Shown here one piece after another: positions 29,491 to 48,408 of a DNA stretch of 64,000 nt. Positions within the stretch are counted from its first letter, which is position 1, and the number at the start of each line of letters is the position of its first letter. Both the position numbers and the translations under genes were made by a program. The notes under the pieces are model-generated. The model searched no databases. It was not told the DNA's origin and saw only the letters and a program-made list of their open reading frames with translations. The DNA is from an uncultured delta proteobacterium (GTDB taxonomy: Bacteria > Desulfobacterota > BSN033 > UBA1163). The DNA is taken from the NCBI GenBank assembly GCA_963827685.1, contig CAWHBU010000003.1, positions 32,001 through 96,000 of the forward strand, given 5' to 3'.

Positions 29491-31697
29491 GTGTCGAAAA
29501 TTATTGCATCTGCAGCGATAAGAGGAGCTCATAAGATTGTTGAAAAGGCTGAAAAGAAATACGAAGAAGCCCTTAAGAAGTGGGGGCCCAATCAGGATGT
29601 GGGATTCCCCAATACCGCCTATTATCTACCTATCATCTATGCCATTCTGGGGGTTCCCGTCCAAAAATTGGGTGATATGAAGCCAGTTCTCGATCGGCCC
29701 GATCCCTGTTACCGCCCTTGGTCAAGGAAAAGGTGAATCTTCCCTACTTAGGCCCTGCCCTCGACGCAGGCATGGCAACCTTTTTTGCCGAAGAGGTCAG
29801 CGAGGCGATACGCTACTTAGAGGATCCCAATTTCTATACGAAGCAGGAAGATCCTTTACCCAATAATATCTGGCTGGGAGCAGCGGATGATGTCATTTTC
29901 CGGAAGAGAGGAATTGAGTTTGTCGATGGAACAGCCCCAGGATTTGCTGCCATCGCCGGCGCAGCGCCCACACCGGAGATTGCCAAGAAGATTGCCACCG
30001 AGCTTCAGGAGAAAAACCTCTATATCTTTATGTGTGCCGAATTCGAAGGGAGACGTTTCTCAGAACAATTAGTGAAGGCTGGCGTTCAGATCGGCTGGCC
30101 GACCCGTCTGGTTTCCTTTGGGCCTGATATCTCCGCAGCCGTCTTTGCCATTGGTTTTGCCTGTCGAGTCGCCATGGCTTTTGGAGGGATTAAACCCGGA
30201 GATTTTCGGAAAAATCTCATCTACAACAAGGACCGTACCTTTGCCTTTGTCATGCCCCTAGGATATGTCAATGATGAATGGTATGCCAATGCCGCAGGCG
30301 CCATCAACTGGGGATTTCCCACAATCGCCGATACACCCATCCCTGAAATTTTACCTACAGGGGTATGCACCTATGAGCATGTCGTTTCCAATGTTCCTCA
30401 TGATCAGATTGTCCAGAGGTCAGTGGAAGTGAGAGGGTTGAAGGTCACCGTCGCTGAGGTCCCCATTCCCGTTTCCTATGGTCCTGCCTTCGAAGGCGAG
30501 AGGGTCAGGGGTGAGGATATCTATTTAGAGTGTGGTGGAGGAAGAACCCACGCTGTAGAATGGGTGACTTCCAAAAACATGGATGAGGTGGAGGATGGAA
30601 AGGTAGATGTCATCGGTCCCGACCTGGATAAGATAAAGCCGCCAGGTCAACTTCCCCTTGCCATTGTCGCGGAAGTGGCAGGCCGACAGATGCAAGAGGA
30701 TTTCGAGCCAATTCTGGAGCGCCAAATCCATCATCTGATCAACTATGCCCAAGGGATCATGCATATTGGTCAAAGGGATATTGCCTGGGTACGAGTCGGT
30801 AAAGCAGCGGTTGATAAAGGATTCCGGCTCTCCCATCTCGGCAAGATCCTCCATGCAAAGTTCCATCAGGACTTTGGAGCGATTTTCGACAAAGTCCAGG
30901 TTAAAGTCTATACGGAACCCAAAGCGGTTGACGAAATGGTGGCCAAAGCAAAGGAGGTTTATAGAAAAAGGGATGCCCGTATCGAAGGCATGACCGATGA
31001 GACCACGGACATCTTCTACTCCTGCACCCTTTGCCAATCCTTTGCGCCCAACCATGTCTGTGTCATCAGTCCAGAAAGGACCGGACTTTGCGGTGCTTAC
31101 AACTGGATGGATTGCAAGGCCTCGTTTGAGATCAATCCCACCGGACCGAACCAACCCGTTCAAAAGGGAGAGATGATCGATACGAAATTAGGCCAGTGGA
31201 AGGGTGTGAATGATTTTGTGTTCAAGGCCTCCCGTCAGAAGATCGACCACTATAATTTTTACAGTCTGGTCTATGATCCGATGACCACTTGCGGTTGTTG
31301 CGAATGCATTGCTGCTGTTCTTCCGATGTGTAATGGGGTGATGACCGTCAATCGAGATTTTACAGGAATGACCCCCTGCGGAATGAAATTCACTACTCTG
31401 GCAGGCTCTGTCGGTGGCGGTGCGGTCACCCCGGGCTTCGTGGGCCACAGCAAATACAATATCACCCAGAGAAAGTGGCTGATCGGAGACGGAGGCATCA
31501 AACGATTGGTTTGGATGCCCAAAATTCTCAAGGAAGAAATTGGAGAACGATTCAAGAAACGAGCTGAAGAGATGGGTATTCCAAACCTTCTTGATATGAT
31601 TGCAGATGAGACCATTGGAGTGACAGAGGATGAGATTCTTCCCTTCCTGACAGAGAAGAATCATCCAGCCCTCTCAATGGATCCGATTCTTGGATGA
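29491..31697 (+). CDS. acsB: acetyl-CoA synthase, with apparent 1-bp frameshift near 29696
   Basis: N-part FPNTAYYLP; C-part CTLCQSFAPNHVC, TCGCCEC, PGFVGH. Adding one G at 29696 gives DRARSLLPPLVKEK and joins the two frames. Confidence 0.92.
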
Positions 31698-31806: not shown

Positions 31807-33153
31807 ATGGGACTGACAGGGATTCAAATCTTCAAGATGTTACCGAAAACGAACTGCGGAGAGTGCGGCGTTCCAACCTGTCTCGCTTTTGCCATGAACT
31901 TGGCAGCCGGAAAAGCGGAATTGGCCTCCTGTCCCTATGTGTCTGAGGAGGTAAAGGCCATGCTCTCTGAGGCAGCGGCTCCGCCCATTCGACCTCTCGC
32001 CATTGGCTCGGGTGAAAATGTGGTCAAGGTCGGTGGAGAAACGGTTTTGTTCCGCCACGAAAAGACCTTCGTCAACAAACCCGGTGTTGCTATTCTGATT
32101 AGTGATACCATGCCAGAGGCGGAGGTCAATGCCCGCTTGAAACGATTCAAGGAATTGAAATATGAAAGGGTCGGCCTCACCTTGCGGCCGGAGTTGGTTG
32201 CGATCAAGAACGAATCGGGTGATCCCGGAAAATTTGAAGCCTTGATCAAAAAGGTGAAAGGTGAAACCGATGCTGCCCTCATCCTGATAAGCGACAAGGT
32301 GGATGCCTTGACCGCAGGGGTGAAGGCTTGCGCGGATCGTGTTCCATTGATCTACGCGGCAACCGATGGCAACAGCGATGCCTTAGCCAGTTTAGCCAAG
32401 GAAAACAAATGTCCATTAGCAATCAAAGCCGATAATCTTGATGCATTGATTGCACTTTCAGACAAACTGACCAAAGCGGGGTTAAAAGATCTTGTGATTG
32501 ATTCTGGGGCGAGGACGTTGCGCAAAGCCTTTGAGGACCAAATCTATATCCGCCGGGCGGCCCTCAACCAAAAAAACCGTTCCCTCGGATTCCCAACAAT
32601 TACCTTCCCTTGTGAAATGACGAAAGATCCGCTGAAGGAGGCCTTGATTGCAGCAACTTTTATATCTAAATATGCAGGCATCATCGTCCTTTCTGATTTC
32701 CAGGGTGAAAGCATCTTCCCCCTCCTCGTGGAACGGCTAAATATTTATACCGACCCCCAGCGGCCCATGATGATGCAGCAAGGAATCTACCCCATTGGCA
32801 ACCCGACAGACGCTTCTCCAGTTCTCATCACGACCAACTTCTCCCTGACCTATTTTATCGTCTCCGGTGAGATCGAATCGAGTCGAGTGGCGAGCTGGCT
32901 TTTGGTGATGGATACCGAAGGGCTATCGGTTCTGACCGCCTGGGCAGCAGGAAAATTTGTGGGCGATGCAATCGGTGCCTTTGTTAAGAAGAGTGGCATC
33001 ACTGATAAAGTCAAGCATCGTCGGGTGGTCATCCCCGGAGCCGTTGCAGCCGTAAGCGGCGATCTCGAAGAAGAACTGGGTAAGGGCTGGGAAGTTAAGA
33101 TCGGACCAAGAGAAGCCGCTCACATACCCGCCTTTTTGAAGATGGGAGCCTAA
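31807..33153 (+). CDS. acsC: corrinoid iron-sulfur protein large subunit
   Basis: LPKTNCGECGVPTCLAFA, NIYTDPQ, TTNFSLTYF, SVLTAWAAGKF, GPREA. Confidence 0.97.
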   Translation: MGLTGIQIFKMLPKTNCGECGVPTCLAFAMNLAAGKAELASCPYVSEEVKAMLSEAAAPPIRPLAIGSGENVVKVGGETVLFRHEKTFVNKPGVAILISDTMPEAEVNARLKRFKELKYERVGLTLRPELVAIKNESGDPGKFEALIKKVKGETDAALILISDKVDALTAGVKACADRVPLIYAATDGNSDALASLAKENKCPLAIKADNLDALIALSDKLTKAGLKDLVIDSGARTLRKAFEDQIYIRRAALNQKNRSLGFPTITFPCEMTKDPLKEALIAATFISKYAGIIVLSDFQGESIFPLLVERLNIYTDPQRPMMMQQGIYPIGNPTDASPVLITTNFSLTYFIVSGEIESSRVASWLLVMDTEGLSVLTAWAAGKFVGDAIGAFVKKSGITDKVKHRRVVIPGAVAAVSGDLEEELGKGWEVKIGPREAAHIPAFLKMGA

Positions 33154-33280
33154 TACTGATTGCGGAATGTAGATTGCGGAATGCGGAATAAAAGATTTGA
33201 TATCCGCACTCACGGCGATCGGGAATCCTCAATCCACAATCCGAAATCCGCAATCCGCAATTTAATATAAGGAGGATCGC

Positions 33281-34183
33281 ATGTTACGTATAGGAGAAAA
33301 TCTTAATGTGATGGTCAAGAAGATCGGAACCGCCATGAAGGATAGAGATCCTAAGCCCATTCAGGAGCTGGCCATGGCGGAGGCCAAAGCAGGCGTTGAT
33401 TTCATTGATATCAATCTCGGACCTGCCCGAAAGGGTGGAGGAGAATTGATGGAGTGGATCGTCAAGGTCGTCCAGGAAGTCGTGGATACACCTCTTTACC
33501 TTGATACCATCAATGTAGAAGCCATCGAGGCCGGGCTCAAGGTTTACAAAAACAAGAAGGGAAAGGCTGTCATCAATTCGATCATGGCCCGTCCTGAAAG
33601 CATGGATGTAAAATTTCCTGTCGCAGCAAAACATAATGCAGGAGTCGTTGCCCTTCTCTGGGGCCCCTCGGGGCTTCCCCGGGATGCAGACGAAAGAGGA
33701 GTTCTGGCAGCAGAGTTAATGCAAAAATGTTTAGAATTCGGGATCCCAGGTGAGGATGTTTGGATGGATCCCATCGTCACCCCGGTGACCAGCCCCCAGA
33801 GCCAGGTTCAGGTCCCGAGTTGCATCGAATTTATGAAAATGTTTAAGGACCTTCAGGAAGTGCTCCCCGGGATGAGATCCACCTGCGGTCTTTCCAATGT
33901 ATCCAATGGAGCCCCGGAACACCTGAGACCCATCCTCAATCAAACCTATCTGATGATGCTCGAACGATATGGGATGGCCTCGGCCATTGTCGATGCCTTC
34001 GACGAAGATCTCAAAAAATTTGCGTCCGGAGGGCGAGCGGATCTTAGAAAACTTGTCTATCGTGTCATGGATGGGGAAGAGATCGACCTCAAGAAGCTGG
34101 GTAAAGAGGAAGCCGATTATGTGAAGACCACCAGGGTCTTGATTGCCAAAGCCCTTTACTCCGATTCATGGCTGGAACTGTAA
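33281..34183 (+). CDS. acsE: methyl-THF:corrinoid iron-sulfur protein methyltransferase
   Basis: IGENLN, IDIN, INSI, GLSNVSNG pterin-binding barrel; follows acsC. Confidence 0.92.
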   Translation: MLRIGENLNVMVKKIGTAMKDRDPKPIQELAMAEAKAGVDFIDINLGPARKGGGELMEWIVKVVQEVVDTPLYLDTINVEAIEAGLKVYKNKKGKAVINSIMARPESMDVKFPVAAKHNAGVVALLWGPSGLPRDADERGVLAAELMQKCLEFGIPGEDVWMDPIVTPVTSPQSQVQVPSCIEFMKMFKDLQEVLPGMRSTCGLSNVSNGAPEHLRPILNQTYLMMLERYGMASAIVDAFDEDLKKFASGGRADLRKLVYRVMDGEEIDLKKLGKEEADYVKTTRVLIAKALYSDSWLEL

Positions 34184-34310
34184 TAACCAAACGTTGACAT
34201 CCGTCATTTAGGAATTGAGGAATTTGGGGATGGCGGAATCGATTGCCGTCATGACTCCTTAAATTCCAGATTTCCCGAATTCAAAAATTCTGTATTTTTT
34301 CAATGAGGAA

Positions 34311-35234
34311 GTGCCTATGAAATCAGGAAGCCGTCTCGAGAGGGTCCTTGAAGCCGGACATTTTGCTTTCACCGGTGAACTCGGTCCACCCCAGGGAGCC
34401 AATGTGGAGGCCATCAAGAAAAAAGCAAGTCACCTTAAGGGGATCGTCGACGCAGTCAACATCACTGATAACCAGACCGCTGTCGTGCGAATGGCAAGTT
34501 GGGCGGCTGGCTTAATTGCCATCCAGGAAGGTTTGGAACCCAACTATCAAATGGTCTGTCGTGATCGTAACCGCATCGCCATGCAGAGCGATATCCTGGG
34601 AGCCTATGCTCATGGTATCCGGAATATGCTCTGTTTGTCGGGCGACCACCAACAATTTGGGAATCACCCTTTCACCAAAGGGGTCTTCGATATCGACTCC
34701 ATTCAACTGATCAGCATGGTCAAAGGGATGCGAGACAACAAGAAATTTCTGAATGGGGATGACATCGATGAGGCCCCTCAGTTATTCATCGGCGCTGCGG
34801 CCAACCCATTTGCCGAACCTTTTGAATTCCGGGTGCATCGTTTGGCGAAAAAGATTGAGGCGGGTGCCGATTTTATCCAAACCCAATGCATCTATGACAT
34901 GAAACGGTTTCGTGAGTGGATGAAACAGGCCCATGATATGGGACTGACTGAAAAGGTCTCCATTCTTGCGGGAGTCACTCCTCTTAAATCAGGCGGTATG
35001 GCTCGATATATGGCAAAGAATGTCTCCGGCATCATCATCCCCGATGAGATCATTGACCGAATTGTAAATGCCAAAAAAGCCGCGGAAGAAGGGATTAAGA
35101 TTTGTGTTGAGCAAATTGAGGAATTGAAGGAAATCAAAGGGGTTCGTGGAGTTCATCTGATGGCCATTGAATGGGAACATAAGGTTCCCGAAATTGCTGA
35201 AAGGGCGAAATTGATCCCGAGACCCCAGGTATAA
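34311..35234 (+). CDS. metF: methylene-THF reductase (copy 1)
   Basis: GELGPP, NITDNQ, CRDRNRIAMQSD, LSGDH, IQTQC. Confidence 0.92.
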   Translation: MPMKSGSRLERVLEAGHFAFTGELGPPQGANVEAIKKKASHLKGIVDAVNITDNQTAVVRMASWAAGLIAIQEGLEPNYQMVCRDRNRIAMQSDILGAYAHGIRNMLCLSGDHQQFGNHPFTKGVFDIDSIQLISMVKGMRDNKKFLNGDDIDEAPQLFIGAAANPFAEPFEFRVHRLAKKIEAGADFIQTQCIYDMKRFREWMKQAHDMGLTEKVSILAGVTPLKSGGMARYMAKNVSGIIIPDEIIDRIVNAKKAAEEGIKICVEQIEELKEIKGVRGVHLMAIEWEHKVPEIAERAKLIPRPQV

Positions 35235-35280
35235 CCGATGACGGGGAGATGGGGTAATAGGAAGATAAAGTGAGAAGGAT

Positions 35281-35952
35281 ATGTTCATGTACGATTTTAT
35301 TGGGAGTCAGTTAGTATCCATTGCGTTGATTGTATTTGTTTTGGGGTTTATCTACCAAGGGGCCCAATTTTTCAAATTGACAAGAAAGAAAGAGTGGATT
35401 TTGCCACCCTTACCTTTGGAAACAAAACCTAAGAAGAAAACGGTGGGACAATTCATCGTTTTCTGTCTCACCTCTCTCAACGGAACCCTGTGGAAGACAG
35501 ATCCCTTCATGACGATTGTGACATCCGTTTTCCACGTCTTTCTGATCGTGGTACCTATTCTTCTACTTGGTCATAATATTCTCTTCGACCAATCCTGGGG
35601 TTTTAGCCTTTGGAGCTTGCCTGAATCGATCACCGATGTCTTAACCGTGGTCGTTTTGGTCTGTGCGGCTTTTTTCCTTGCACGGCGTTTATTCCTCTCG
35701 CGGGTCCGAGCCGTCACGACGGCCTACGACTATCTCATCCTTCTCATCGCCATAGCTCCTTTCCTGACAGGGTATTTCGCCTATCACCAGTGGTTTGATT
35801 ATGATACGGTGATGACACTCCACATTCTGACAGGAGAAGTCATGCTCATCACTATCCCATTTACGAAACTCGGGCACATGCTCTTTTTCTTCCTCTATCG
35901 TTTCCTCATCGGAAGCGAATACAGTTTCGCAAGGGGAGCCAGAGCCTGGTAA
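35281..35952 (+). CDS. NarI/TmcC/DsrM-like membrane cytochrome b subunit
   Basis: About 5 TM helices; His in VFH, LLGH, TLH and IPFTKLGH. Confidence 0.85.
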   Translation: MFMYDFIGSQLVSIALIVFVLGFIYQGAQFFKLTRKKEWILPPLPLETKPKKKTVGQFIVFCLTSLNGTLWKTDPFMTIVTSVFHVFLIVVPILLLGHNILFDQSWGFSLWSLPESITDVLTVVVLVCAAFFLARRLFLSRVRAVTTAYDYLILLIAIAPFLTGYFAYHQWFDYDTVMTLHILTGEVMLITIPFTKLGHMLFFFLYRFLIGSEYSFARGARAW

Positions 35953-35970
35953 CGGAAAGGATCTTGCGGC

Positions 35971-36384
35971 ATGGAGAACAGTATGTCCCATCAGGAATTG
36001 AAACCAGTTGATACAAAACAGATCAAAGAAATGCTCGATCGGAAAAAGGGCAAAATGAAACGATTTTTGTCCTATTGCGCTCATTGCAGTCTTTGTGCCG
36101 AAAGCTGTTTTTTATATATGGAGCATCATAAGGATACCCAATACATGCCCTCGTATAAGGCGATCAATTCCTTGGGCAAATTATATAGAAAAAGGGGTAA
36201 GGTCGACCGGAAGCTTTTGACGGATATCAAGGGCATCGTGTGGAGAAACTGCGTGCTTTGTGGCCGCTGTTATTGTCCAATCGGTATTCATATTCCCAGT
36301 ATGATTGCTTTCGCCCGAAGCATCCTCAGGTCTCAGGATGTCTATCCTCAGCTGGATGAGGTGTCGTCGGAGAGTTGGTTGTAA
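35971..36384 (+). CDS. 2x[4Fe-4S] protein (TmcB/DsrK/HdrC-like N-domain only)
   Basis: CAHCSLCAESC and CVLCGRCYCP; no CCG domain. Confidence 0.85.
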   Translation: MENSMSHQELKPVDTKQIKEMLDRKKGKMKRFLSYCAHCSLCAESCFLYMEHHKDTQYMPSYKAINSLGKLYRKRGKVDRKLLTDIKGIVWRNCVLCGRCYCPIGIHIPSMIAFARSILRSQDVYPQLDEVSSESWL

Positions 36385-36416
36385 TACGGAAAGACGGTCT
36401 CTGAAGGAGAGGGGTT

Positions 36417-36824
36417 ATGAAAGGAATCGGTTGTAGGCTCTCGATGATCACGGTTGCTGCTCTCCTGGTTTTAAGCAACTCTCCTGCCGGAGCGCAACCG
36501 GATAAGATTGTATTAGATCATTCGAACATCTCCGGAGGAAGAACAAGACCTCCGGTGACCCTTCCTCACAATCGCCATGTTGAAGCAGGATTGTCCTGCA
36601 AGGACTGCCACCACATCTATGAAAACGGGAAAAACGTTCTGGATGAGAGTAAACTCGAGGAAGGCAACAAGAACATCCGTTGTTCCGCTTGCCATGCTCC
36701 GAAGTCCCGACTCAATCTGGAACAGGCTTTTCACAACCAGTGCTTAGGTTGTCATACAAAATACCAGAAGGAAAAGAAAAAGACAGGTCCCCGGTATTGC
36801 GGGGAATGTCATATAAAAAAATGA
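36417..36824 (+). CDS. periplasmic tetraheme cytochrome c3 (TmcA-like)
   Basis: Signal peptide; CKDCH, CSACH, CLGCH, CGECH plus HxxH and AFH distal His. Confidence 0.92.
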   Translation: MKGIGCRLSMITVAALLVLSNSPAGAQPDKIVLDHSNISGGRTRPPVTLPHNRHVEAGLSCKDCHHIYENGKNVLDESKLEEGNKNIRCSACHAPKSRLNLEQAFHNQCLGCHTKYQKEKKKTGPRYCGECHIKK

Positions 36825-36926
36825 TTATGCAGATTACCAAACAAGATTACACAGATTTTAAAAGAATCGGTGGAATCTCGCTTTTTGAATCGGTGTAATC
36901 AGCGTCAGCGTAGCTGGAGGAAGAAA

Positions 36927-37601
36927 ATGATTGTAGGGGAAAGAAAACCTTTTGACGAGATCAAGGAAATGATGAAGAGCTTCAAGAAGGTTCTGAATGT
37001 GGGTTGTGGAGGGTGTACGTCCATCTGCATGGCCGGCGGCCAAAGGGAAGTGGAACTCTTAAATGAAGAACTCCAAAACGCCCTGAAGCGGGATGGGGCC
37101 TCATTCCAAGCGGATGGGTTCACCATCGAGCGACAGTGCAATGCCGATTTCTATTCGGAGCTGGATGAGATTGTAAAAGGTTATGATGCCTTGTTGTCCA
37201 TGGCTTGTGGAGCCGGGGTCCAATTCCTTGCCGACCGACACCCTCAAAAACCGGTGTTTCCCGCTCTGAATACCGTTTTCGTCGGCGTGGACCGGGATAT
37301 CGGGTGGTTTGAGGAAAATTGCCGGACGTGTCGTGAGTGTGTCTTGGGAGAAACAGGAGGAATATGTCCTGTTACAAGATGTGCCAAGAGTCTCTTCAAC
37401 GGCCCCTGTGGGGGAACTTCTCGAGAAGGTAAATGTGAAGTGAGCAAAGATACTCCTTGTGCCTGGTTTGAGATTCATAAACGCCTGAAGGAGCAAAACA
37501 GACTGGAAAACATTCTGAAGCTGAAACCCGCAAGGGAATGGCGAAATCAAACTCAGGGAACCCTGGTTCAGGAAGCCTATAAGAAAAGATATGCAAAATG
37601 A
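36927..37601 (+). CDS. metV: methylene-THF reductase small subunit MetV (copy 1)
   Basis: GCGGCTSIC, ERQC, MACGAG, CRTCREC, CPVTRCAKSLFNGPCGG. Confidence 0.9.
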   Translation: MIVGERKPFDEIKEMMKSFKKVLNVGCGGCTSICMAGGQREVELLNEELQNALKRDGASFQADGFTIERQCNADFYSELDEIVKGYDALLSMACGAGVQFLADRHPQKPVFPALNTVFVGVDRDIGWFEENCRTCRECVLGETGGICPVTRCAKSLFNGPCGGTSREGKCEVSKDTPCAWFEIHKRLKEQNRLENILKLKPAREWRNQTQGTLVQEAYKKRYAK

Positions 37602-37682
37602 GAGAGGTTACTGAAAAGGGGAATCCTTTCCCGCTTGAAAGAGTTCCCGTGTTTCAGGAATGCGTGCAATTCTTCGTGGAGC

Positions 37683-37712
37683 TTGACAGATTTTTCCACG
37701 AGGGTTTATAAT
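37683..37712 (+). promoter_or_regulatory. sigma70-type internal promoter
   Basis: TTGACA-N18-TATAAT. Confidence 0.55.
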
Positions 37713-37908
37713 TTTATAATTTTCGTTTTCCATGCCCTTAAAAATATCCGTTCTCTTGGGCAATCGATTCATAAAATTAGGGTATTCGCGGTAGAAACTG
37801 ATGATACTTCCTCTTAAGAGGATCCTCGGATTCTACCTTATCCGCTCTTTCGCACGGGGCATGGGTTAGAACGGGACGACCACCATGCCTCTCGAGACGA
37901 TTGGATAA

Positions 37909-38040
37909 TGAAGCTCCCCGGCCACAAGCCGGGGCTTCCCGGGGCACGTAGTGGCGAGCGGAAAGCGAACCAAGAAATATCGTTTTGATTGTGCCCCATA
38001 ACCCCGCCTACAAGGCGGGGCTTACAGGGCACTTGCCGGT
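37909..38040. mobile_element. MITE-like element with two IS200/IS605-end-like hairpins
   Basis: TGAAGCTCCCCGGCCACAAGCCGGGGCTTC and CCCCGCCTACAAGGCGGGG; related to the 1208 and 14336 repeats. Confidence 0.5.
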
Positions 38041-38074
38041 CACCTCCCTCAAGGTGGGAGAGAGGAGAAAGCCC

Positions 38075-38947
38075 ATGACATTTAAGGAACGATTGGATTC
38101 GGGAAAATTTGCAGTCGCCGTTGAACTCCAGCCCCCTAAGGGAAACGAACTCTCTGAGCTATACGAATATACGGAACTCCTCAAGGGGCGGGTGGATGCG
38201 ATCAATGTGCCAGACCTTCAGAATGCCATCATGAGGCTTGGATCCCTTTCGGTATGCACCCTGCTGAAGGCAAAGGGAATGGAGGTGATCTACAATCTAT
38301 CCTGCAGCGACCGAAACCGATTGGCACTCCAATCCGAACTCTTGAACGCTTCGGCTTTGGGTCTGAAGAACATTTTACTCGTCCAGGGCGACCCTCCCTC
38401 CATGGGGGATCACTTCGAAGCCAAAGCGGTCTTTGATCTCGATGTCACGGGTTTGCTCGGCGCTGCCAAGCGCCTCCAAGAAGGCTACGACCTCACAGGA
38501 AATGACCTCCAAGGAAAACCACAATTTTGTGTAGGCACCCAAATCAATGCAGCCGCCAAAGGTCATGTCCTCGATCTGGAGGTCATGGACATGGAAAAGA
38601 AGATACGGACGGGGGTCGATTTCTTCTTCACCAATTCGATCTACGATGTAAGCCTTTTTGAGCCCTTCGCCAAAAAAGTGGCACACTTCAAGGTTCCCAT
38701 CATCGCAGGCATCACCCTGCTCAAATCAGTGGGGATGGCCCGCTATGTGAACAAACATGTGGAAGGAGCTTCCATTCCCGATTCAATCATCGACCAATTG
38801 ATGAAGGCTTCAGACAAACAGAAAGCAAGTATTGAGATCGCAGGGGGTCTGATCAAGGCATTGAAACCACTTTGCCAAGGAGTCCAGATCATTCCCATCG
38901 GATGGGAAAAGCAGGTTCCTGCTCTTCTGGATTATGTAGGACTGTAA
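38075..38947 (+). CDS. metF: methylene-THF reductase-like protein (divergent copy 2)
   Basis: VELQPP, NVPD, CSDRNRLALQS, QGDPP; TN in place of the conserved TQ. Confidence 0.8.
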   Translation: MTFKERLDSGKFAVAVELQPPKGNELSELYEYTELLKGRVDAINVPDLQNAIMRLGSLSVCTLLKAKGMEVIYNLSCSDRNRLALQSELLNASALGLKNILLVQGDPPSMGDHFEAKAVFDLDVTGLLGAAKRLQEGYDLTGNDLQGKPQFCVGTQINAAAKGHVLDLEVMDMEKKIRTGVDFFFTNSIYDVSLFEPFAKKVAHFKVPIIAGITLLKSVGMARYVNKHVEGASIPDSIIDQLMKASDKQKASIEIAGGLIKALKPLCQGVQIIPIGWEKQVPALLDYVGL

Positions 38948-39086
38948 GAAGCACATTGCAGAATGAAAATTGCACAATTAGCGGCGGAAAACATTTTGCA
39001 CTTTGCACTTTTCATTTTGCATTTTTCATTGGATCAAGGTGATGCCAGGTTTTCTTGTCAACCCTGGGGAGATATGGTACCTTGGG

Positions 39087-41420
39087 ATGGAAATGGCTGC
39101 CAAAAAACAAACTCCGACAACAAAGAGAAAGAAAACCGCTGAACCACTTATCCTTGTCAAAAAGAAGGAAGTGGGGTCAGAGATGTTTCAATCCATCGCC
39201 GAATTGGGAAATGATGGGATCTTGGTATTTGATGAACGTCATCAGATCGAATTTGCAAATCGGATGGCTTCCGAGATCACGGGGTATTCGAACAAAGAGT
39301 TACTGAAGATGTCGGTCCTTTCCCTTTTAGGCAAACCCCATCCATCCTTTATCGAAGACCTCTTCATCCATCCTGAGCGTTATGGCGAAAAAACGTGTAG
39401 CCAGATTCAGCTGCCCGCCTCTAACGGGGAGATCAAAGAGGCTGAAATTTGTATCGCCTTGGCGAAAACACCCCTTGGAGCCCGGAAGGGTTATGCCTAT
39501 CTCCGAGATATTACAGAGTCGAAAAGAATGGAACGAAGGATCCAAGAGGCCACCCAACAGTTTGAGAAGATTGCGGAGATGGGTGACGATGGGATCCTGG
39601 TCTTCGATCAGGCTTTTAAGATCATTTTTGCCAATCAGATGGCCTCCGAAATGACCGGGATTCCCAAGGAAGATTTGATCGGAAGAAATTTCTTCTCCGT
39701 CATTGGTAAAGAGGACAAACAATTTCTTGAAGGGACGGTCACCCGCGGTGTGGGAATAGGCGAGAAGCTATGCACCGAAATGAATATCCTGACCTCTCAG
39801 GGCCACGTCAAAGATGCAGAGGTTTGTATTGCTTTGGCCGAGTCGGATACGGGAGAGGTCAAGACCTATGCCTATATCCGGGACATCACAGAACGAAAAA
39901 AATTCGAAAGGGATCTCAAGGACTCCGAGGAAAAGCTCAGAAACCTCTTCGAGAGGGTGAGACACGGCCTCTTCATCAGCTCAAAGGAGGGCAAGTTTTT
40001 AGACTGTAACCAAGCCCTTCTCGACATGCTGGAATACCCTACTAAAGAGGAATTTCTCAAAATAGATATCGCCCAGGATCTCTATGTGAACCCGGATGAC
40101 CGGAAAACCTTTCAGGAGAGAATCGAAAGAGAGGGTCATATCAAAGACATGGAGGTGGAATTCAAGAGGAAGAATGGGGATAAGATCACCGTCTTGCAGA
40201 CCTCTCATCCTATTAAGAATGAGAAGGGAGAGGTCGTTGGCTACCAAGGCATTAACTTAGATATCTCCGAGAGGAAACGGATCGAGAATCAACTTCGCGA
40301 GGCCAACGAATTCTTCCTGAACCTGATCGAAAGCTCTGTGGATGGGATCATTGCGGCGGACATGAAAGGCAATATCTTCATCTTTAACAAAGGGGCGGAG
40401 GCGCTAACCGGATACAAGGCAGAGGAGGTGATTGGCAAACTCCACATCACCAAGATCTATCGAGAGGGCGTAGCGAAAGAGATCATGAAAAAACTCCGAA
40501 GTCAGGAATATGGGGGTGTCGGAAAATTTATTCCTACCCAGATGAACGCAGTCAATAAGTTTGGACAAGAAATCCCCATCCAACTCTCTGCCGCCCTCAT
40601 CTACAACGGGAGTGACCAGGAGATCGCCAGTGTGGGTATCTTTACGGATTTAAGACCTCGTCTGAACATGGAGAAGAAGCTCCAAGAGACCCACCTCCAA
40701 TTAGTCAGCTCTGAGAAGATGGCCTCTCTCGGAAAACTGGCAGCAGGAATTGCCCACGAGATCAACAATCCTTTGGGCGGAATTCTTATTTACTCCAGTC
40801 TGATGATGGAGGACCTTCCCGAGGAGGATCCGCGTCGGGGAGATTTGGTTCGAATCGTTCAGGAGGCAGGCCGGTGTAAGGAGATTGTCAAGAGCCTTCT
40901 TGAATTCGCCCGCCAGACCGAACCGAAGATGGAGCCCACCGATGTCAATCGAGCCATCAGTGACGGCCTCTTCTTCTTGGTCAATCAGGCTTTATTTCAC
41001 AATATCCATATCGTGAAGAAACTCGATTCCTTCCTCCCCTTCGTCCGGGGAAATGCCGGCCAACTGAAACAGGTTTTCATGAATATCATTGTGAATGCCG
41101 CGGAAGCGATGCACGGCAATGGGACACTGACTATTACCACCTTCCGTGCCCCGGACCGGAAGACGGTCTTTGTGGAATTTGTAGATACCGGTGAGGGCAT
41201 CCCCGCAGAGAACCTCACCCGAATCTTTGATCCCTTCTTCACCACCAAGGAGGTGGGAAAGGGAACCGGATTGGGCCTCGCCACTTCTTATGGAATTATT
41301 GAGGATCACGGAGGGAAGATCAACGTAAAGAGTAAGGTGGGAGAAGGGACAACCTTTACGATCGAACTTCCCATTCACCAAGGGACCCAGGCTATCCTGG
41401 AGGAACAGCCAATTAATTAG
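39087..41420 (+). CDS. multi-PAS sensor histidine kinase (NtrB-type)
   Basis: Four PAS units; AHEINNP H-box; DPFFTTK, GTGLGL. Start is approximate. Confidence 0.93.
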
Positions 41421-41432: not shown

Positions 41433-41996
41433 ATGAATCCAGTCCAACAAACAAATCAAAAGGGGAATTCATTCCTGTTGGAAGTCGCTCAGGCCAGTGG
41501 TGAAACCATACAGGCTTGCTATCAATGTCAGAAGTGTTCAGCGGGATGCCCGGTGGCTTATGCTATGGATATCCTTCCCAATCAGATGCTTCGTCATATC
41601 CAGTACGGCCATCGAGAAAAGGTTCTCACTTCAAAAACGATTTGGATCTGCGCCTCTTGCTATACCTGCAGTGTTCGGTGTCCAAACAATATCGATATCG
41701 CCAAGATCATGGATACCTTGAGGAGCCTGGCCATTCACTCTGAGATCAAACCAGGGGAAAAGGACATCCCCCTGTTTCATTCTGTTTTCTTGGACACCAT
41801 CAAATCGAAAGGCCGGATCCACGAACTCAGCCTCATTATTCAGTTTAAGTCTAAGACCAAGGATTTTTTCAAAGACGCTGGACTGGGCTTGAAGATGTAT
41901 CGCAAAGGGAAGATCAAACTCTTCCCATCCAAGTTTGGAGGGGGAAAAGAGATCAAAGAGATCTTCAACGCTTATGAGAAAGGGGAGAGAAGGTGA
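41433..41996 (+). CDS. hdrC: heterodisulfide reductase subunit C
   Basis: CYQCQKCSAGCP and CASCYTCSVRCP. Confidence 0.93.
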   Translation: MNPVQQTNQKGNSFLLEVAQASGETIQACYQCQKCSAGCPVAYAMDILPNQMLRHIQYGHREKVLTSKTIWICASCYTCSVRCPNNIDIAKIMDTLRSLAIHSEIKPGEKDIPLFHSVFLDTIKSKGRIHELSLIIQFKSKTKDFFKDAGLGLKMYRKGKIKLFPSKFGGGKEIKEIFNAYEKGERR

Positions 41997-42844
41997 AAGG
42001 AATTTCTTATTACCCAGGATGCTCCCTCCAGGGAACAGCCGGGGAATATGACGATTCGATTCGAGGCGTATCAAACCTACTCGACATCCAACTCCATGAA
42101 TTGGAAGACTGGACTTGCTGCGGTGCCAGTTCGGCCCACTGCACGGATGAGGAGTTGGCGATCGACCTTGCGGCCCGAAACCTAGCTATTGCAGAAAAGA
42201 ACGATCGGGAACTTCTTGTCCCATGCGTAGCGTGTTACAGTCGATTCAAATGGGCTGAGAAAGAGTTCAAGGAACATCCGGAGAAAATACATTTTTCGTA
42301 TCGAGGCAATGTTCCCATACGATATGTCTTGGACTTTTTCTGTGAGGGGCCTCTCTTAGAAGAGATCAAGAAAAAGATTACAAAACCTCTCTCCGGACTG
42401 AAGGTCGTCTGTTATTATGGATGTCTTACGGTTCGGCCTCCGAAAATGACAGGTATCAAGGAATACGAAAACCCTCAACACATGGACCATCTCATGGAAT
42501 TATTAGGCGCAGAGCCCATTCCTTGGTCCTATAAAGCAGATTGTTGTGGGGCTAGTCTCGTCATGACTCGTACAGATATCGTCAGAAGACTGAGCGGCAA
42601 ACTCCTGTCGATGGCTAAGGAGGCAGAGGCTGACTGTCTGGTCACTGGCTGTCCGATGTGTCATGCCAATCTCGACACTCGTCAGGATGAATTAGAGAAG
42701 GAAGCTGGAGAAAATTTTAATCTTCCTATCCTCTATTTTACAGAATTAATAGGATTGGCTTTGGGGCATAAAGATGCAAAGAAATGGTTGGGCCACCATA
42801 TCACAGATCCCATTAAAGTATTACACGCAAGAGGGTTAATATAA
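41993..42844 (+). CDS. hdrB: heterodisulfide reductase subunit B
   Basis: YYPGCS, CCGA, CVAC, YYGC, CCGA, CPMC (two CCG domains). Confidence 0.93.
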   Translation: MKGISYYPGCSLQGTAGEYDDSIRGVSNLLDIQLHELEDWTCCGASSAHCTDEELAIDLAARNLAIAEKNDRELLVPCVACYSRFKWAEKEFKEHPEKIHFSYRGNVPIRYVLDFFCEGPLLEEIKKKITKPLSGLKVVCYYGCLTVRPPKMTGIKEYENPQHMDHLMELLGAEPIPWSYKADCCGASLVMTRTDIVRRLSGKLLSMAKEAEADCLVTGCPMCHANLDTRQDELEKEAGENFNLPILYFTELIGLALGHKDAKKWLGHHITDPIKVLHARGLI

Positions 42845-43057
42845 TCGATTGCTTCAGGGTTTATGGGAGCATACATATACAAGAAAATTCCAAATACCAA
42901 GCGCCAAATTCCAAACAAGCACCAATTTTCAAAATGCAGAAGTTCCAAACAGACTGAAAGTTTTGAATTTGGAAATTAGAATTTGGGATTTGTTTGGGAT
43001 TTGGATATTGGGATTTTGGATTTAAAACGACTGAAAGAAAGGCCTGCGGAGTCAGGA

Positions 43058-46000
43058 ATGATGAAAACCCAAATGCAAGACAAGGTTGTAGATAAAATAG
43101 GCGCCGTGATGGTCGTTGGAGGGGGCATCGCGGGAATCCAATCCTCCCTTGACCTTGCCGAATCCGGTTACTATGTCTACCTTGTGGAAAGCTCGCCTGC
43201 CATCGGTGGGGTAATGGCCCAGTTGGATAAAACCTTTCCAACGAACGACTGCTCTATGTGCATCCTTTCCCCCAAATTAGTTGAGGCAGGCCGACACCTC
43301 AATATTCAGACCCTCACTTACTCCGAGGTGGTAAAGGTAGAAGGAGAGCCCGGAAACTTTGAGGTCACGGTAAGAAAGAAACCTCGTTTCATCGATCCCA
43401 CAAAATGCACGGGTTGTGGAGAATGTCCACAGGCCTGCCCTGTTCCTATCAAAAGTCAATTCGATGAAGGATTGGTAGATCGAAGAGCCATCTACAGGCC
43501 TTATGCACAAGCCTTTCCCAATATTTTTACCATTGAAAAAGGAGACCGAGCTCCTTGTGGTCTCACCTGCCCTGCCGGGATCAATGTTCAAGGTTATGTG
43601 GCTCTGACTGGAGTCGGTAAATATAAAGAAGCCCTGTCACTGATCTGGGAGAATCTCCCTCTTCCAGGGGTCTTGGGCCGGATCTGTCCTCATCCCTGTG
43701 AAAAGGAATGTAATCGCAAGGATTTGGATGAACCCATTGCGATCTGTGAATTAAAACGATTTCTTGCGGATCGGGTCGAGACAGAGATTCCCATCAAAAA
43801 GGACGAAGCTAAAGAGGAACGGATAGCCATCGTGGGCTCTGGACCAGCCGGTTTGACCGCCGCTTCATTTTTGGCCCAGAAAGGATATCCCGTTACCATT
43901 TTTGAGGCCCTGCCAGTCATGGGAGGAATGCTCTATGCAGGTATTCCTTCTTATCGTCTTCCCAGAGATATTTTAGAGGAAGAGATTAAGACGATCCAAT
44001 CCCTCGGTGTGGAGATCAAGACCAATTCCCCCATCGGCCCCAATCTCACCCTCGACAATCTTTTTAAACAAGGATACCGAGCTATCTTTCTCGCTGTGGG
44101 CGCTCACCTCGATCAAAAACTGAATATCCCCGGAGAAGAAAATCCCCATGTGATTCCTGGTGTGGTTTTTCTCCGAAAGGCTAATCTCGGTCAGAAGGTT
44201 GAAGTGGGGGAACGAGTTGCAGTGATCGGAGGCGGAAATGTGGCCATCGATGCAGCCCGCACAGCCCTGCGAATGGGTGCCAAAGAGGTAACCATCATTT
44301 ATCGTCGATCTCGGAATGAGATGCCCGCCTATGAGGACGACATTGAAGAGGCAGACGAAGAGGGAATCAAGTTCCAACTCCTCGCCGCTCCCACCGAGGT
44401 CGTCTCCAAAGATGGGAAGGTTACTTCTCTCCGATGTATCCGGATGGAATTGGGTGAACCGGATGCATCAGGAAGAAGACGTCCCATTCCGGTTCAGGGA
44501 TCAGATTTTTCTGTTGAGGTAGATACGATCATCCCTGCCATCGGCCAGACCCCTGATCTCCTCTTCATGAGGGGAATGGAAATAAAAACAACTCCTCAGG
44601 GTACGATTAAAGTGGACCCCATTACTCTTAAAACCTCTAAGGAAGGTGTCTTCGCAGGAGGAGATGCTGTTTCCGGACCTTGGATTGCGATTGAGGCAGT
44701 GGCTGCAGGGAAGGAAGCAGCCATCTCTATCGACCGATACCTCCGAGGGCAGGATCTTTTTGAAGGAAGGCCAAAACCCAAACTTGAAAAGGCTCGATTT
44801 GAAGAGATCTATGCAAACCAACCAAAAGCCCTGAGAGAACGGATGGAGAGGATTCCCTCTGAGGAAAGGCGAAAAAGCTTTTCAGAAGTAAAGAAAGGCT
44901 TCACGGAAGAACAGGCAAAGAGAGAGGCCCTTCGATGCCTCAATTGTGGACTCTGTTCCGAATGCCTCCAGTGCGTCGCACTCTGCAAGGCAGGGGCAGT
45001 CAATCACCAGATGAAAGAAGAAGTTGTGAATTTCCGGGTTGGTTCTATCATTTTGAGCCCCGGGTTTGACGAATACGACGCAAACCGACTGGTCCCTTAC
45101 GGATATGGTCGATTTCCGAATGTCATTTCCAGCATTCAATTTGAACGGATTTTGAGTGCCTCAGGTCCCTTTCAAGGAAATCTCTTGAGACCGTCAGACC
45201 AGAAATCACCCCAAAAGGTGGCCTGGATCCAATGCGCAGGCTCAAGGGATATGACCGGAAACGGCGGGAATGAATATTGCAGCTCCGTCTGCTGTATGTA
45301 TGCCATTAAAGAAGCGGTCATTGCCAAAGAGCATCATCGCGAGGTGGAACCCACCATCTTCTATATGGATATCCGCGCTCATGGGAAAGATTTCGACGCC
45401 TATTATGAAAGGGCAAAGAAAGAATATGGTGTCCGGTTCATCCGCTCAATGGTCTCCCGAGTGGCAGAAAGGCCGAAGACAAAAAATCTGATCATCAGCT
45501 ATATCGATTCTGAAGGTCGGTTCAAGGAGGAAGGGTTCGATCTCGTCGTCCTTTCTGTAGGATTGACACCCTCTGAAGGTGCAAAAGAAATTGCCCAGAA
45601 TCTTGGTCTGCAACTGGATTCCTATGGGTTCTGCAAGACCGAGGAGTTCTCTCCGCTTCAAACCAGCCGGCCAGGCATCTATGTGTGCGGGGCTTTTCAG
45701 GGCCCCAAGGATATTCCCGAGACCGTAGCCCAAGCCAGTGGGGCAGTGGCGAGCGCCTCAAGTCTTCTTGCCGATGTCCGTGGAACTCTCACAAAGAAAA
45801 AGGACTACCCTGCTGAGATAGATGTTAAAGGACAGGAGCCCCGCATTGGTGTATTTGTCTGCCATTGTGGGATCAATATTGGAGGGGTCGTCAATGTCCA
45901 GGAAGTAAAAGAATATGCAAAAGCCCTGGACGGGGTCGCTTATGTCGAAGAGAATCTTTATACATGCTCTCAGGACACCCAGGAGAAGATCAAGAAGGCG

Positions 46001-47527: not shown

Positions 47528-47609
47528 TGGTGAATTTTTGATTTTAGATTGCCGATTGCCAATTTAAAATCGGAAATTGGAAATCGCAAATCGAAAATGG
47601 GTGAATGAG

Positions 47610-48365: not shown

Positions 48366-48373
48366 GTGGTTTT

Positions 48374-48408
48374 GTTTTAAGTTTTAAGTTTTAAGTTTTA
48401 AGTTTTAA
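48374..48408 (+). repeat. perfect heptamer tandem repeat (GTTTTAA)x5
   Basis: Read directly between mvhD and the second hdrA. Confidence 0.9.

What the first reader, a model, noticed from the sequence alone, without database searches (positions are those of the whole stretch)
34311..37601. Tmc-like membrane redox module inserted between metF and metV
Seen: metF - NarI-type cytochrome b - 2x[4Fe-4S] protein - periplasmic tetraheme c3 - metV, all co-directional and directly after acsE. The FeS protein lacks the CCG catalytic domain found in TmcB/DsrK. Known: MetFV reductases couple to HdrABC-MvhD (Moorella), RnfC2 (Acetobacterium) or ferredoxin, and Tmc links periplasmic cytochromes to the cytoplasm. 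Inference: MetFV takes the place of the CCG domain, forming a membrane-bound methylene-THF oxidoreductase wired to periplasmic cytochromes or quinone. This could drive methyl-THF oxidation or conserve energy at this step.
Basis: partly seen in the sequence, partly recalled or inferred. Interest (0 to 1): 0.7.

Follow-up and report, generated by a model that had tools for sequence, protein, structure and literature searches.

The report
Membrane cytochrome-wired methylene-THF reductase operon
The two genes of a key CO2-fixation enzyme (methylene-tetrahydrofolate reductase, MetF and MetV) enclose genes for a trimmed cross-membrane cytochrome wire, a conserved but untested candidate for the membrane link of this enzyme that has been sought for decades.

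Summary
On the + strand, directly after acsE, lie metF, a TmcC/HmcE-type two-haem cytochrome b, a 137-aa 2x[4Fe-4S] protein matching only the N-terminal ferredoxin part of TmcB/HmcF (no CCG domain), a signal-peptide tetrahaem c3, and metV.

The short FeS protein is not a truncation:
- It is a large family. It forms one strongly supported clade nested in Tmc-type TmcB and has its own second cluster motif (CxxCxxCxCP).
- In 80 of 80 related loci it sits next to MetV and/or MetF, in shuffled gene orders.
- 0 of 20 loci with full-length TmcB/HmcF had MetV or MetF.
- A multihaem cytochrome c gene accompanies it in 73 of 80 loci, either tetrahaem or a 16-haem HmcA with HmcB/C-like genes.
- A natural cytochrome b-FeS fusion protein exists.

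Best reading (about 0.7): a membrane-bound MetFV complex exchanges electrons between periplasmic cytochromes c and methylene-/methyl-THF. Physical binding, direction of electron flow and any role of quinone are not shown.

Ten literature searches found no description of it. This scan has noted the same module in at least eight other genomes. I file it as a new variant of known kinds (Tmc/Hmc complexes; MetFV reductases), interest about 0.75.

The parts
33281..34183 (+). acsE (methyl-THF:corrinoid/FeS protein methyltransferase), the gene directly upstream; produces or consumes the methyl-THF that MetF acts on
   Evidence: PF00809 and NF005719 218 bits; 127-nt gap to metF
34311..35234 (+). metF, catalytic flavoprotein subunit of MetFV-type methylene-THF reductase
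   Evidence: PF02219 136.7 bits, whole profile 1-286/287; 63-98 % identical orthologues beside the module in related loci
35281..35952 (+). TmcC/HmcE-type (NarI-family) di-haem cytochrome b, five predicted transmembrane helices, N-terminus out and C-terminus in
   Evidence: NF045723 TmcC 198.9 bits (below cut-off 240), HmcE 180.1, PF02665. Invariant H85, H98, H181, H199 in 20 aligned sequences (A3). K/R-rich loops 31-75 and 135-143 and K/R-rich C-terminus, acidic loops 101-116 and 171-175 (read from the sequence). Natural fusion of this protein to the FeS protein (P0124)
35971..36384 (+). 137-aa cytoplasmic 2x[4Fe-4S] adaptor: a TmcB/HmcF N-terminal ferredoxin domain without the CCG domains
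   Evidence: Fer4_8/Fer4_17 only. Matches HmcF 37-154/457 and TmcB 22-137/430. Eight invariant Cys: C36 C39 C42 C46 and C94 C97 C100 C102 (A1). Motif CxxCxxC-x1-CP in 109 of 110 short rows against x3 in 22 of 23 long rows. One clade, 100/100
36417..36824 (+). periplasmic TmcA-like tetrahaem cytochrome c3 with an N-terminal signal peptide
   Evidence: PF02085 53.4 bits; TmcA NF045722 78.2 bits (below cut-off 114). Four CxxCH and a hydrophobic N-terminus ending AGA-Q. Replaced by a 16-haem HmcA in other variants
36927..37601 (+). metV, Cys-rich FeS subunit of MetFV (the ORF opens at GTG 36870; the conserved start is ATG 36927)
   Evidence: PF12225 117.7 bits. 13 invariant Cys in 20 sequences. 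A C-terminal tail with Y218 and R221 is conserved in module-linked MetV and absent from the window's second MetV (A2)
37683..37712 (+). perfect sigma-70 consensus (TTGACA-18-TATAAT) just after metV: probable start of a separate unit for the next gene, marking the 3' end of the five-gene unit
   Evidence: 12 of 12 matches; no + strand promoter-like site between 34311 and 37601. This is a consensus match only

Best explanation
The five genes encode one membrane-bound methylene-THF reductase. MetF (flavin, catalytic) and MetV (FeS) sit on the cytoplasmic face and dock on the small 2x[4Fe-4S] protein. That protein is a TmcB that has lost its disulfide-reducing CCG domains. It is bound to a two-haem cytochrome b of the TmcC/HmcE type, which meets a tetrahaem cytochrome c3 on the periplasmic face.

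The chain is: cytochrome c3 - haem b (outer) - haem b (inner) - two [4Fe-4S] - MetV clusters - MetF flavin. It carries electrons across the membrane between the periplasmic cytochrome c pool and the methylene-THF/methyl-THF couple (E0' -200 mV).

With H2 or formate oxidised in the periplasm, methylene-THF reduction in the cytoplasm would act as a redox loop that builds proton-motive force. Running backwards during acetyl-CoA oxidation, membrane potential would help to push methyl-THF electrons out to the cytochrome pool, a reverse redox loop.

Shown: the gene content, the cofactor-binding residues, the topology signals, the conservation of the gene set and the single origin of the short FeS protein. 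Inferred: that the proteins form one complex, the order of the cofactors, the direction of flow and any energy coupling.
For: 1. Domain assignments and the missing CCG domain.

2. The short FeS protein is a real family. There are 666 hits in the 5.8-billion-protein set; the 120 listed are 133-145 aa and 78-95 % identical. 383 of 458 candidate stretches in 185,579 species genomes encode a relative. It occurs in 29 of 401 sampled genomes of the phylum, including the window's own, with open frames of 131-201 aa and at least 57 % identity; forms of 440 aa or more are at most 50 % identical.

3. Linkage. In 80 loci, cytochrome b lies less than 200 nt upstream in 79, MetV is present in 76, MetF in 68, both in 64, and at least one in 80. 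In 28 further loci of +-1.5 kb, MetV is present in 27. At least four gene orders occur, so the set is kept, not just an ancestral order.

4. Specificity. 0 of 20 loci (+-7 kb) around the best full-length TmcB/HmcF hits have MetV or MetF. MetV itself occurs in 321 of 401 genomes of the phylum.

5. Single origin. The short forms are one clade (100/100) on a long stem inside Tmc-type long forms, with a diagnostic CxxCxxCxCP motif.

6. A natural cytochrome b-FeS fusion exists (P0124, 375 aa). It folds confidently as five long membrane helices plus an FeS domain (pLDDT 81.4).

7. A multihaem cytochrome c gene lies on the same strand within 4.5 kb in 73 of 80 loci. In L093 it is a true HmcA (424 bits, above cut-off 400), followed by HmcB- and HmcC-like genes.

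8. The own genome has a periplasmic-type [NiFe] hydrogenase small subunit and a selenocysteine formate dehydrogenase above cut-off, plus dsrA.

9. Physiology elsewhere fits. Membranes of Sporomusa ovata reduce methylene-THF with H2 (PMC9430772, abstract). Thermacetogenium phaeum has membrane-fraction methyl-THF oxidation activity (PMC6895022, abstract and passages).
Against: - No experiment and no structural prediction shows that MetV or MetF touches the FeS protein.
- All three Tmc-like proteins score below the NCBIfam equivalog cut-offs.
- Two untruncated loci have no multihaem cytochrome gene nearby (L078, L108). One has no MetV hit despite 6 kb of room (L047). One has no cytochrome b hit (L030).
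- The window also encodes a full Moorella-type set (HdrCB, HdrA-like, MvhD, MetV2, MetF3). A soluble route for the same step therefore exists in the same cell, and the membrane form may be conditional.
- A same-genus genome that is 100 % complete has four MetV matches but no short FeS protein.
- The RNA data are contigs of relatives from RNA libraries, in which DNA carry-over cannot be excluded.
Confidence: 0.7

Rival explanations
1. The complex is quinone-coupled. The cytochrome b is the quinone site, as in HdrDE, some DsrMK complexes or EtfD/EMO. The enzyme would be a methyl-THF:menaquinone oxidoreductase (or the reverse), with the cytochrome c as an accessory.
For: The cytochrome b belongs to the NarI family. 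The fused form aligns over 446 columns with the M. smegmatis EtfD structure (9ojn; prob 0.63, TMq 0.41). AQDS-dependent methyl-THF oxidation has been measured in T. phaeum (PMC6895022, passages). EMO of Syntrophus reduces methylmenaquinone by a reverse redox loop (preprint 10.64898/2026.08.18.745454, abstract). Hmc-type variants carry an HmcC-like NrfD-family membrane subunit. L078 and L108 have no cytochrome c gene nearby.
Against: A cytochrome c gene is kept in 73 of 80 loci, and 5 of the 7 without one are cut by a contig end. In this genome no MqnA/D match was found, and MenD, MenA, QrcD and QmoC matches stay below their cut-offs (completeness 94.5 %). The nearest relatives are Tmc-type, not DsrMK-type. 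In DsrMKJOP the DsrM subunit seems not to oxidise quinol (preprint 10.64898/2026.08.25.746951, abstract). That purified Tmc is not reduced by menadiol is my recollection of Pereira et al. 2006; I did not see it here.
Confidence: 0.15
2. The cytochrome b/FeS/c3 module is an independent electron conduit whose cytoplasmic partner is a soluble carrier (a ferredoxin, DsrC or another enzyme). It lies among Wood-Ljungdahl genes only for co-regulation.
For: Binding to MetV is not shown. In close relatives the whole acs-met-hdr layout is conserved, so shared regulation is plausible. Small 2x[4Fe-4S] proteins can serve many partners.
Against: Linkage is to MetV and MetF specifically, including loci without any acs gene within 6 kb (for example L062-L079). 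It survives several gene-order changes. Full-length TmcB/HmcF loci never carry MetV or MetF (0 of 20). Here the module genes lie between metF and metV.
Confidence: 0.1
3. A decaying Tmc operon: a truncated tmcB pseudogene and remnants, with no function.
For: The FeS protein covers only the first third of TmcB/HmcF.
Against: All eight cluster cysteines, four haem histidines and four CxxCH motifs are intact and conserved. Hundreds of intact short homologues exist. The genome has a separate full-length TmcB-like gene (419-aa frame) and a DsrK-like gene. There is no leftover CCG sequence: only 32 nt lie between the FeS and cytochrome c genes.
Confidence: 0.02

Closest known systems
TmcABCD complex (type II cytochrome c3 complex) of Desulfovibrio vulgaris and other sulfate reducers
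   Same: It has a NarI-family cytochrome b (best NCBIfam match TmcC), a tetrahaem c3 (best match TmcA) and a cytoplasmic FeS subunit whose ferredoxin domain is nearest to TmcB/HmcF. The gene order cytochrome b - FeS - cytochrome c is that of canonical Tmc loci of the phylum. The short FeS clade branches inside Tmc-type long forms.
   Different: There is no CCG domain, so no disulfide/DsrC-trisulfide reducing site. There is no TmcD gene. The second cluster motif is CxxCxxCxCP. MetF and MetV are always alongside, which was never seen with full-length TmcB (0 of 20). All three proteins score below the equivalog cut-offs.
HmcABCDEF complex of sulfate reducers
   Same: The FeS protein scores best against HmcF (102.3 bits) and the cytochrome b second best against HmcE. 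Sister variants of this operon carry a true 16-haem HmcA plus HmcB- and HmcC-like genes (L093; 16-CxxCH ORFs in 15 of 80 loci).
   Different: The window itself has a tetrahaem cytochrome and no HmcA/B/C/D. The CCG part of HmcF is missing.
MetFV-type methylene-THF reductases: MetFV alone, MetFV-RnfC2 of Acetobacterium woodii, MetFV-HdrABC-MvhD of Moorella thermoacetica and Sporomusa ovata
   Same: It has MetF (PF02219) and MetV (PF12225) with all conserved cysteines. As in the other types, extra genes next to metFV supply the electron input module. S. ovata membranes carry out H2-dependent methylene-THF reduction (PMC9430772, abstract).
   Different: The partner is a membrane cytochrome b/FeS/cytochrome c module, not RnfC2 or HdrABC-MvhD. 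According to the review PMC8578096 (passages seen), genome sequences had given no evidence for membrane localisation of this enzyme. The window also encodes the Hdr/MvhD-linked type separately.
EtfD of mycobacteria / EMO (ETF:methylmenaquinone oxidoreductase) of Syntrophus aciditrophicus; HdrDE; DsrMK
   Same: The logic is the same: a cytoplasmic flavoprotein or substrate site is wired through FeS clusters to haems b in a NarI-like membrane domain. Fold search of the fused form finds EtfD (9ojn) over the whole length and HdrC for the FeS domain, both weakly. EMO is reported to work as a reverse redox loop (preprint abstract).
   Different: Those proteins keep CCG domains with non-cubane clusters and use quinone or phenazine, with no cytochrome c subunit. 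Sequence similarity is low: DsrK scores 32.2 bits, and no PDB sequence matched the A1 profile.

Membership tests
Tmc complex (TmcABCD) | TmcC-type membrane cytochrome b with two bis-His haems | tested here: inconclusive
   Best NCBIfam match is TmcC over the full length, but 198.9 bits is below the cut-off of 240. Four invariant His are present.
Tmc complex (TmcABCD) | TmcB with two [4Fe-4S] clusters plus a CCG domain (catalytic non-cubane cluster) | tested here: not met
   Only positions 22-137 of 430 of the TmcB model are matched, and there is no PF02754. No room for more: 32 nt to the next gene.
Tmc complex (TmcABCD) | TmcA acidic tetrahaem cytochrome c3 | tested here: inconclusive
   Four CxxCH motifs and a signal peptide. 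TmcA is the best match, but 78.2 bits is below the cut-off of 114.
Tmc complex (TmcABCD) | TmcD subunit encoded in the operon | tested here: not met
   No further ORF of 60 aa or more on the + strand between 35281 and 36927. That TmcD is a defining member is recalled, not tested.
Hmc complex (HmcABCDEF) | 16-haem HmcA with HmcB/C/D | tested here: not met
   Absent from the window's operon. Present in the sister variant L093: HmcA 424.2 bits (above cut-off 400), HmcB-like 339.7 and HmcC-like 248.8 (both below cut-off).
MetFV-type methylene-THF reductase | MetF with the MTHFR fold and MetV (PF12225) encoded together | tested here: met
   PF02219 at 1.3e-39 and PF12225 at 1.8e-34, in one co-directional unit. 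13 invariant Cys in MetV.
MetFV-type methylene-THF reductase | Methylene-THF reductase activity with a flavin | not testable with these tools
   Needs enzyme assays.
MetFV-HdrABC-MvhD (Moorella type) | hdrA, hdrB, hdrC and mvhD adjacent to this metFV pair | tested here: not met
   Not in the five-gene unit. A separate set lies at 41433-53764 with its own MetV2 and MetF3.
HdrDE / DsrMK / EtfD-EMO (cytochrome b plus CCG protein) | CCG domain with a non-cubane [4Fe-4S] cluster | tested here: not met
   No CCG match. DsrK scores 32.2 bits, N-terminal part only.

The most novel reading that the evidence does not exclude
Methylene-THF is the terminal acceptor of a true respiratory chain in these bacteria. 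Electrons from periplasmic H2 or formate oxidation, or from extracellular or partner-derived cytochrome electrons, enter through cytochrome c. They cross the membrane by the two haems b and reduce methylene-THF inside, so the Wood-Ljungdahl pathway itself builds proton-motive force. Running backwards, the same complex would be the missing pmf-driven exit for methyl-THF electrons in complete or syntrophic acetate oxidation. This would be the dedicated membrane anchor that 45 years of work on acetogens did not find, here in Desulfobacterota-type anaerobes, in both Tmc and Hmc versions.
Probability: 0.35. Interest if true: 0.85.

Novelty: new variant of a known kind. Interest (0 to 1): 0.75.

Why it matters
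Methylene-THF reduction is the only strongly exergonic step of the Wood-Ljungdahl pathway. Its reverse is the main energetic barrier in acetate oxidation.

Whether the reductase is coupled to the membrane has been argued since the 1970s. The review PMC8578096 (passages seen) says that neither biochemistry nor genomes gave evidence for a membrane-bound enzyme. The recent Sporomusa and Thermacetogenium work had to postulate unknown linkers.

An operon that encodes MetFV together with its own cytochrome b anchor and periplasmic cytochrome gives a concrete complex that can be purified. It is present in hundreds of uncultured species from sediment, peat and groundwater (383 loci). At least one closed single-contig genome carries it (G264).

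It would change energy budgets for sulfate reducers and syntrophs that use the pathway in either direction. It also shows how the Tmc/Hmc scaffolds can exchange their catalytic head.

Tried and rejected
1. Complex prediction of MetV (A2) with the FeS protein (A1): score 0.03 against a mark of 0.32. The verdict was 'no answer' and the controls were not run. This is evidence neither for nor against binding.

2. Sequence search of the A1 profile against PDB chains: only a spurious designed-repeat hit at E 0.0085.

3. Fold search of the fused cytochrome b-FeS model: no match at E <= 0.001. HdrC and EtfD appear only as weak leads.

4. Tree of MetV copies, to ask whether module-linked MetV is its own clade. 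My proximity rule left only 3 'other' rows and mislabelled second copies, so it is inconclusive.

5. Rfam scan of 33100-39100 for a riboswitch or leader before metF2: nothing below E 0.69.

6. RNA evidence. Only contigs of 90-97 % identical relatives from two nanopore RNA libraries and two probably-DNA libraries. They cover metF, bridge the cytochrome b/FeS junction and cover metV. They cannot prove transcription or a single transcript. Parts without cover mean nothing.

7. Menaquinone and Qmo/Qrc family searches in the own genome found nothing above cut-off. The assembly is 94.5 % complete, so this is 'not found with these models', not absence.

8. Pseudogene/truncation reading: rejected (see rivals).

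9. Literature. Ten searches (one search was a malformed request) and the passages read found no paper that links MetFV to a Tmc/Hmc-type module. The Desulfobacterium autotrophicum genome paper (PMC2702500, passages) lists 'MetF-ABC' and two 'TmcBCA' clusters in a figure legend without explanation. Its figures, and the supplements of PMC10553843 (S10 Fig on metF neighbourhoods), were not visible and may bear on priority. Pereira et al. 2011 could not be fetched.

10. Five hits with open frames of 265-307 aa and 38-42 % identity were not examined.


Full report
**What is there**

The window is a Wood-Ljungdahl gene island of a 5.2-Mb, 14-contig assembly (94.5 % complete, 8 % contamination). Its nearest named relatives are MAGs labelled Thermodesulfobacteriota, Syntrophaceae or Syntrophales.

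On the + strand lie RACo, folD, acsD, the CODH gene, acsB, acsC and acsE. The unit in question follows:

| Gene | Coordinates |
|---|---|
| metF | 34311-35234 |
| 223-aa membrane protein | 35281-35952 |
| 137-aa Cys-rich protein | 35971-36384 |
| 135-aa cytochrome c | 36417-36824 |
| metV | 36927-37601 |

Pfam and NCBIfam name these proteins as follows:
- MetF is an MTHFR.
- The membrane protein is NarI-family; its best match is TmcC (198.9 bits, cut-off 240), then HmcE.
- The 137-aa protein is a Fer4_8/Fer4_17 dicluster protein. It covers only HmcF positions 37-154 of 457 and TmcB positions 22-137 of 430, with no CCG domain.
- The cytochrome is class III c3; its best match is TmcA (78.2 bits, cut-off 114).
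- MetV matches PF12225.

Intergenic gaps are 18-127 nt. The scan found no + strand promoter-like site inside the unit, and a perfect TTGACA-18-TATAAT lies just behind metV.

**Cofactor sites and topology**

In 20 aligned cytochromes b, H85, H98, H181 and H199 are invariant. This is the pattern of two bis-His haems on helices 2 and 5.

The K/R-rich loops (31-75 and 135-143) and the K/R-rich C-terminus, against acidic loops 101-116 and 171-175, put the N-terminus outside and the C-terminus inside. This is read from the sequence.

The FeS protein has eight invariant cysteines in 24 sequences. It has no signal peptide. The cytochrome c has a signal peptide and four CxxCH motifs. MetV keeps 13 invariant cysteines.

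**The short FeS protein is a family, not a truncation**

- The 5.8-billion-protein search gave 666 hits. The 120 listed are 133-145 aa long.
- The 50 %-cluster library gave 176 representatives.
- A scan of one genome per species found 383 encoding loci among 458 candidates.
- In a sample of 401 genomes of the phylum, 29 (including the window's own) have a short form, with open frames of 131-201 aa and at least 57 % identity. Forms of 440 aa or more are at most 50 % identical.
- The second cluster motif is CxxCxxC-x1-CP in 109 of 110 short rows and CxxCxxC-x3-CP in 22 of 23 long rows (the two surveys overlap and were not de-duplicated).
- In a tree of 23 long and 38 short domains (every third of the 110 short rows, plus the window), the short forms are one clade with 100/100 support. 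The clade sits on a long stem, nested among Tmc-type long forms.
- The genome also has a separate full-length TmcB-like gene and a DsrK-like gene.

**Linkage to MetFV**

In 28 loci of +-1.5 kb from the phylum sample:
- MetV is beside the FeS gene in 27. The exception is cut by a contig end.
- Cytochrome b is present in 27.
- The tetrahaem cytochrome is present in 21.

In 80 loci of +-6 kb:
- Cytochrome b lies less than 200 nt upstream in 79. The 80th starts at the FeS gene.
- MetV is present in 76, MetF in 68, both in 64, and at least one in 80.
- Most misses are contig ends.
- L047 lacks MetV with room to spare.
- L090 has metF on the other strand.
- L099, L101 and L108 have no metF within 4 kb.

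Several gene orders occur:
- metF-b-FeS-c-metV
- acsE-b-FeS-metV-metF
- b-FeS-c-metV-metF
- c-metV-b-FeS
- metV-b-FeS

As a control, 20 loci of +-7 kb around the best full-length TmcB/HmcF hits all show canonical Tmc or Hmc layouts. None has MetV or MetF. MetV itself is common, in 321 of 401 genomes. The association is thus specific to the CCG-less form.

**The periplasmic partner**

A same-strand ORF with three or more CxxCH motifs lies within 4.5 kb in 73 of 80 loci. Five of the seven exceptions are truncated.

Where the tetrahaem gene is missing, a 16-CxxCH ORF of 500-700 aa follows metF or metV. In L093 it is HmcA above the NCBIfam cut-off, followed by HmcB-like and HmcC-like genes. There are therefore a Tmc version and an Hmc version of the same idea. 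The Hmc-type loci nest inside the short-FeS clade, which suggests that the cytochrome partner was exchanged later.

**Cytochrome b and FeS protein as one unit**

P0124 (375 aa) is a natural fusion of the two, and P0127 is a fragment of another.

AlphaFold2 of P0124, with an alignment of separate and fused forms, gives pLDDT 81.4. The model has five long membrane helices and a helical FeS domain.

Fold search finds only weak leads: HdrC for the FeS domain, and the M. smegmatis EtfD structure over 446 columns.

**Which way, and quinone or cytochrome?**

The own genome has:
- dsrA;
- a [NiFe] hydrogenase small subunit above cut-off;
- a selenocysteine formate dehydrogenase alpha subunit of the periplasmic proteobacterial type.

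I found no QmoC, QrcD, MqnA/D or MenD above cut-off. MenA-like hits are just below cut-off.

Together with the near-universal cytochrome c gene, this makes a cytochrome-c-linked conduit the better reading here. A quinone site on the cytochrome b, or on HmcC in the Hmc version, is not excluded.

The thermodynamic values come from the papers read. Methylene-/methyl-THF is at -200 mV, menaquinone-7 at -74 mV and formate at -432 mV (PMC6895022 abstract; PMC8578096 and PMC5861303 passages).
- Reduction of methylene-THF by periplasmic H2 or formate is downhill. With this topology it would leave protons outside and consume them inside.
- Oxidation of methyl-THF towards low-potential periplasmic acceptors is uphill. 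It would be helped by the membrane potential, as in the reverse redox loop reported for EMO of Syntrophus (preprint 10.64898/2026.08.18.745454, abstract).

These steps are inference.

**Context in the window**

Behind metV come:
- a second, MetV-less metF (probable start 38075);
- a PAS histidine kinase;
- hdrC and hdrB;
- a 1514-aa HdrA/NfnB-like fusion;
- mvhD;
- a 1027-aa HdrA-like protein;
- MetV2 and MetF3.

This is a Moorella-type set. The cell thus appears to hold a soluble Hdr-linked reductase and a membrane-linked one side by side. Close relatives keep the whole layout. The module is patchy within the family: 5 of 11 genomes have it, and a complete same-genus genome lacks it.

**Expression**

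Contigs from two nanopore RNA libraries of a wetland study, 90-97 % identical to the window, cover parts of metF. They bridge the cytochrome b/FeS junction and the metF/cytochrome b junction, and cover metV. This is a weak hint from relatives only.

**Prior knowledge**

Ten full-text searches and the passages read found no description of MetFV with a Tmc/Hmc-type module.

The closest functional reports are:
- the H2-to-methylene-THF chain in Sporomusa ovata membranes (PMC9430772, abstract and outline);
- the membrane-fraction methyl-THF oxidation in Thermacetogenium phaeum (PMC6895022, abstract and passages).

Both lack a known anchor. The review PMC8578096 (passages) states that genomes had given no evidence for membrane localisation.

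Figures of PMC2702500 and supplements of PMC10553843 could not be seen.

This scan has noted the same module in at least eight other genomes. Those notes agree with this report but are not independent evidence.

New here, as far as those notes show:
- the control on full-length TmcB loci;
- the single-clade tree;
- the CxxCxxCxCP motif;
- the natural fusion and its model;
- the HmcABC-type variant;
- the co-resident Hdr-linked set.

**Verdict**

The complex prediction gave no answer. I file it as a new variant of known kinds, worth an experiment.

Noticed in passing
window 29491-31697: acsB is split into two overlapping ORFs: 29491-29736 (81 aa, good AcsB N-terminus) and 29718-31697 (659 aa). 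The frame changes near 29695-29720. This is either a real frameshift or an assembly error.
   Followed up: partly
window 41433-53764: A complete second, Moorella-type reductase set: hdrC, hdrB, a 1514-aa HdrA/NfnB(GltD)-like fusion, mvhD, a 1027-aa HdrA-like protein, MetV2 (52022-52759) and MetF3 (52832-53764). It lies 4 kb downstream of the membrane-type set.
   Followed up: partly
window 37683-38947: A MetV-less third metF paralogue (metF2, probable start 38075) lies behind a perfect sigma-70 consensus and is followed by a PAS histidine kinase (39003-41420). The trio metF2-kinase-hdrCB is conserved in close relatives.
   Followed up: partly
window 37856-38049: This intergenic stretch has several-fold higher contig depth. 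Many contigs break off at 37909 and 37942 in four metagenome/metatranscriptome runs, as for a short repeated or widely shared element. Two similar GC-rich words lie about 90 nt apart. There is no Rfam match.
   Followed up: partly
G000:C4:128220-128498 and window 52091-52756; G000 C11 and C12 contig starts: MetV2 is identical over 219 columns to a copy on contig C4. Near-identical dsrA fragments open contigs C11 and C12. This is either a duplication or a mix of strains, in an assembly with 8 % contamination.
   Followed up: no
L093:5249-12359: Hmc-type version of the module: cytochrome b, short FeS protein, MetV, MetF, then a true 16-haem HmcA, an HmcB-like and an HmcC-like (NrfD-family) gene, directly after acsA-B-C-E.
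   Followed up: yes
L040, L047, L068, L085, L102, L105 (record titles): A few carrier contigs sit in MAGs labelled Thermodesulfovibrionia, Acidobacteriota, Fermentibacterota, Planctomycetes or Spirochaetota, yet their proteins are 57-86 % identical to the window's. This points to binning errors or recent transfer.
   Followed up: no
window 56675-59279: NuoF-like (627 aa) and NuoG N-terminal-like (218 aa) genes downstream of a hybrid kinase. They are possibly part of a bifurcating hydrogenase or formate dehydrogenase.
   Followed up: no
rows G360, G312, G199, G258, G169: Intermediate forms of the FeS protein, with open frames of 265-307 aa and 38-42 % identity, in one family of the phylum. They are neither short nor full length.
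   Followed up: no
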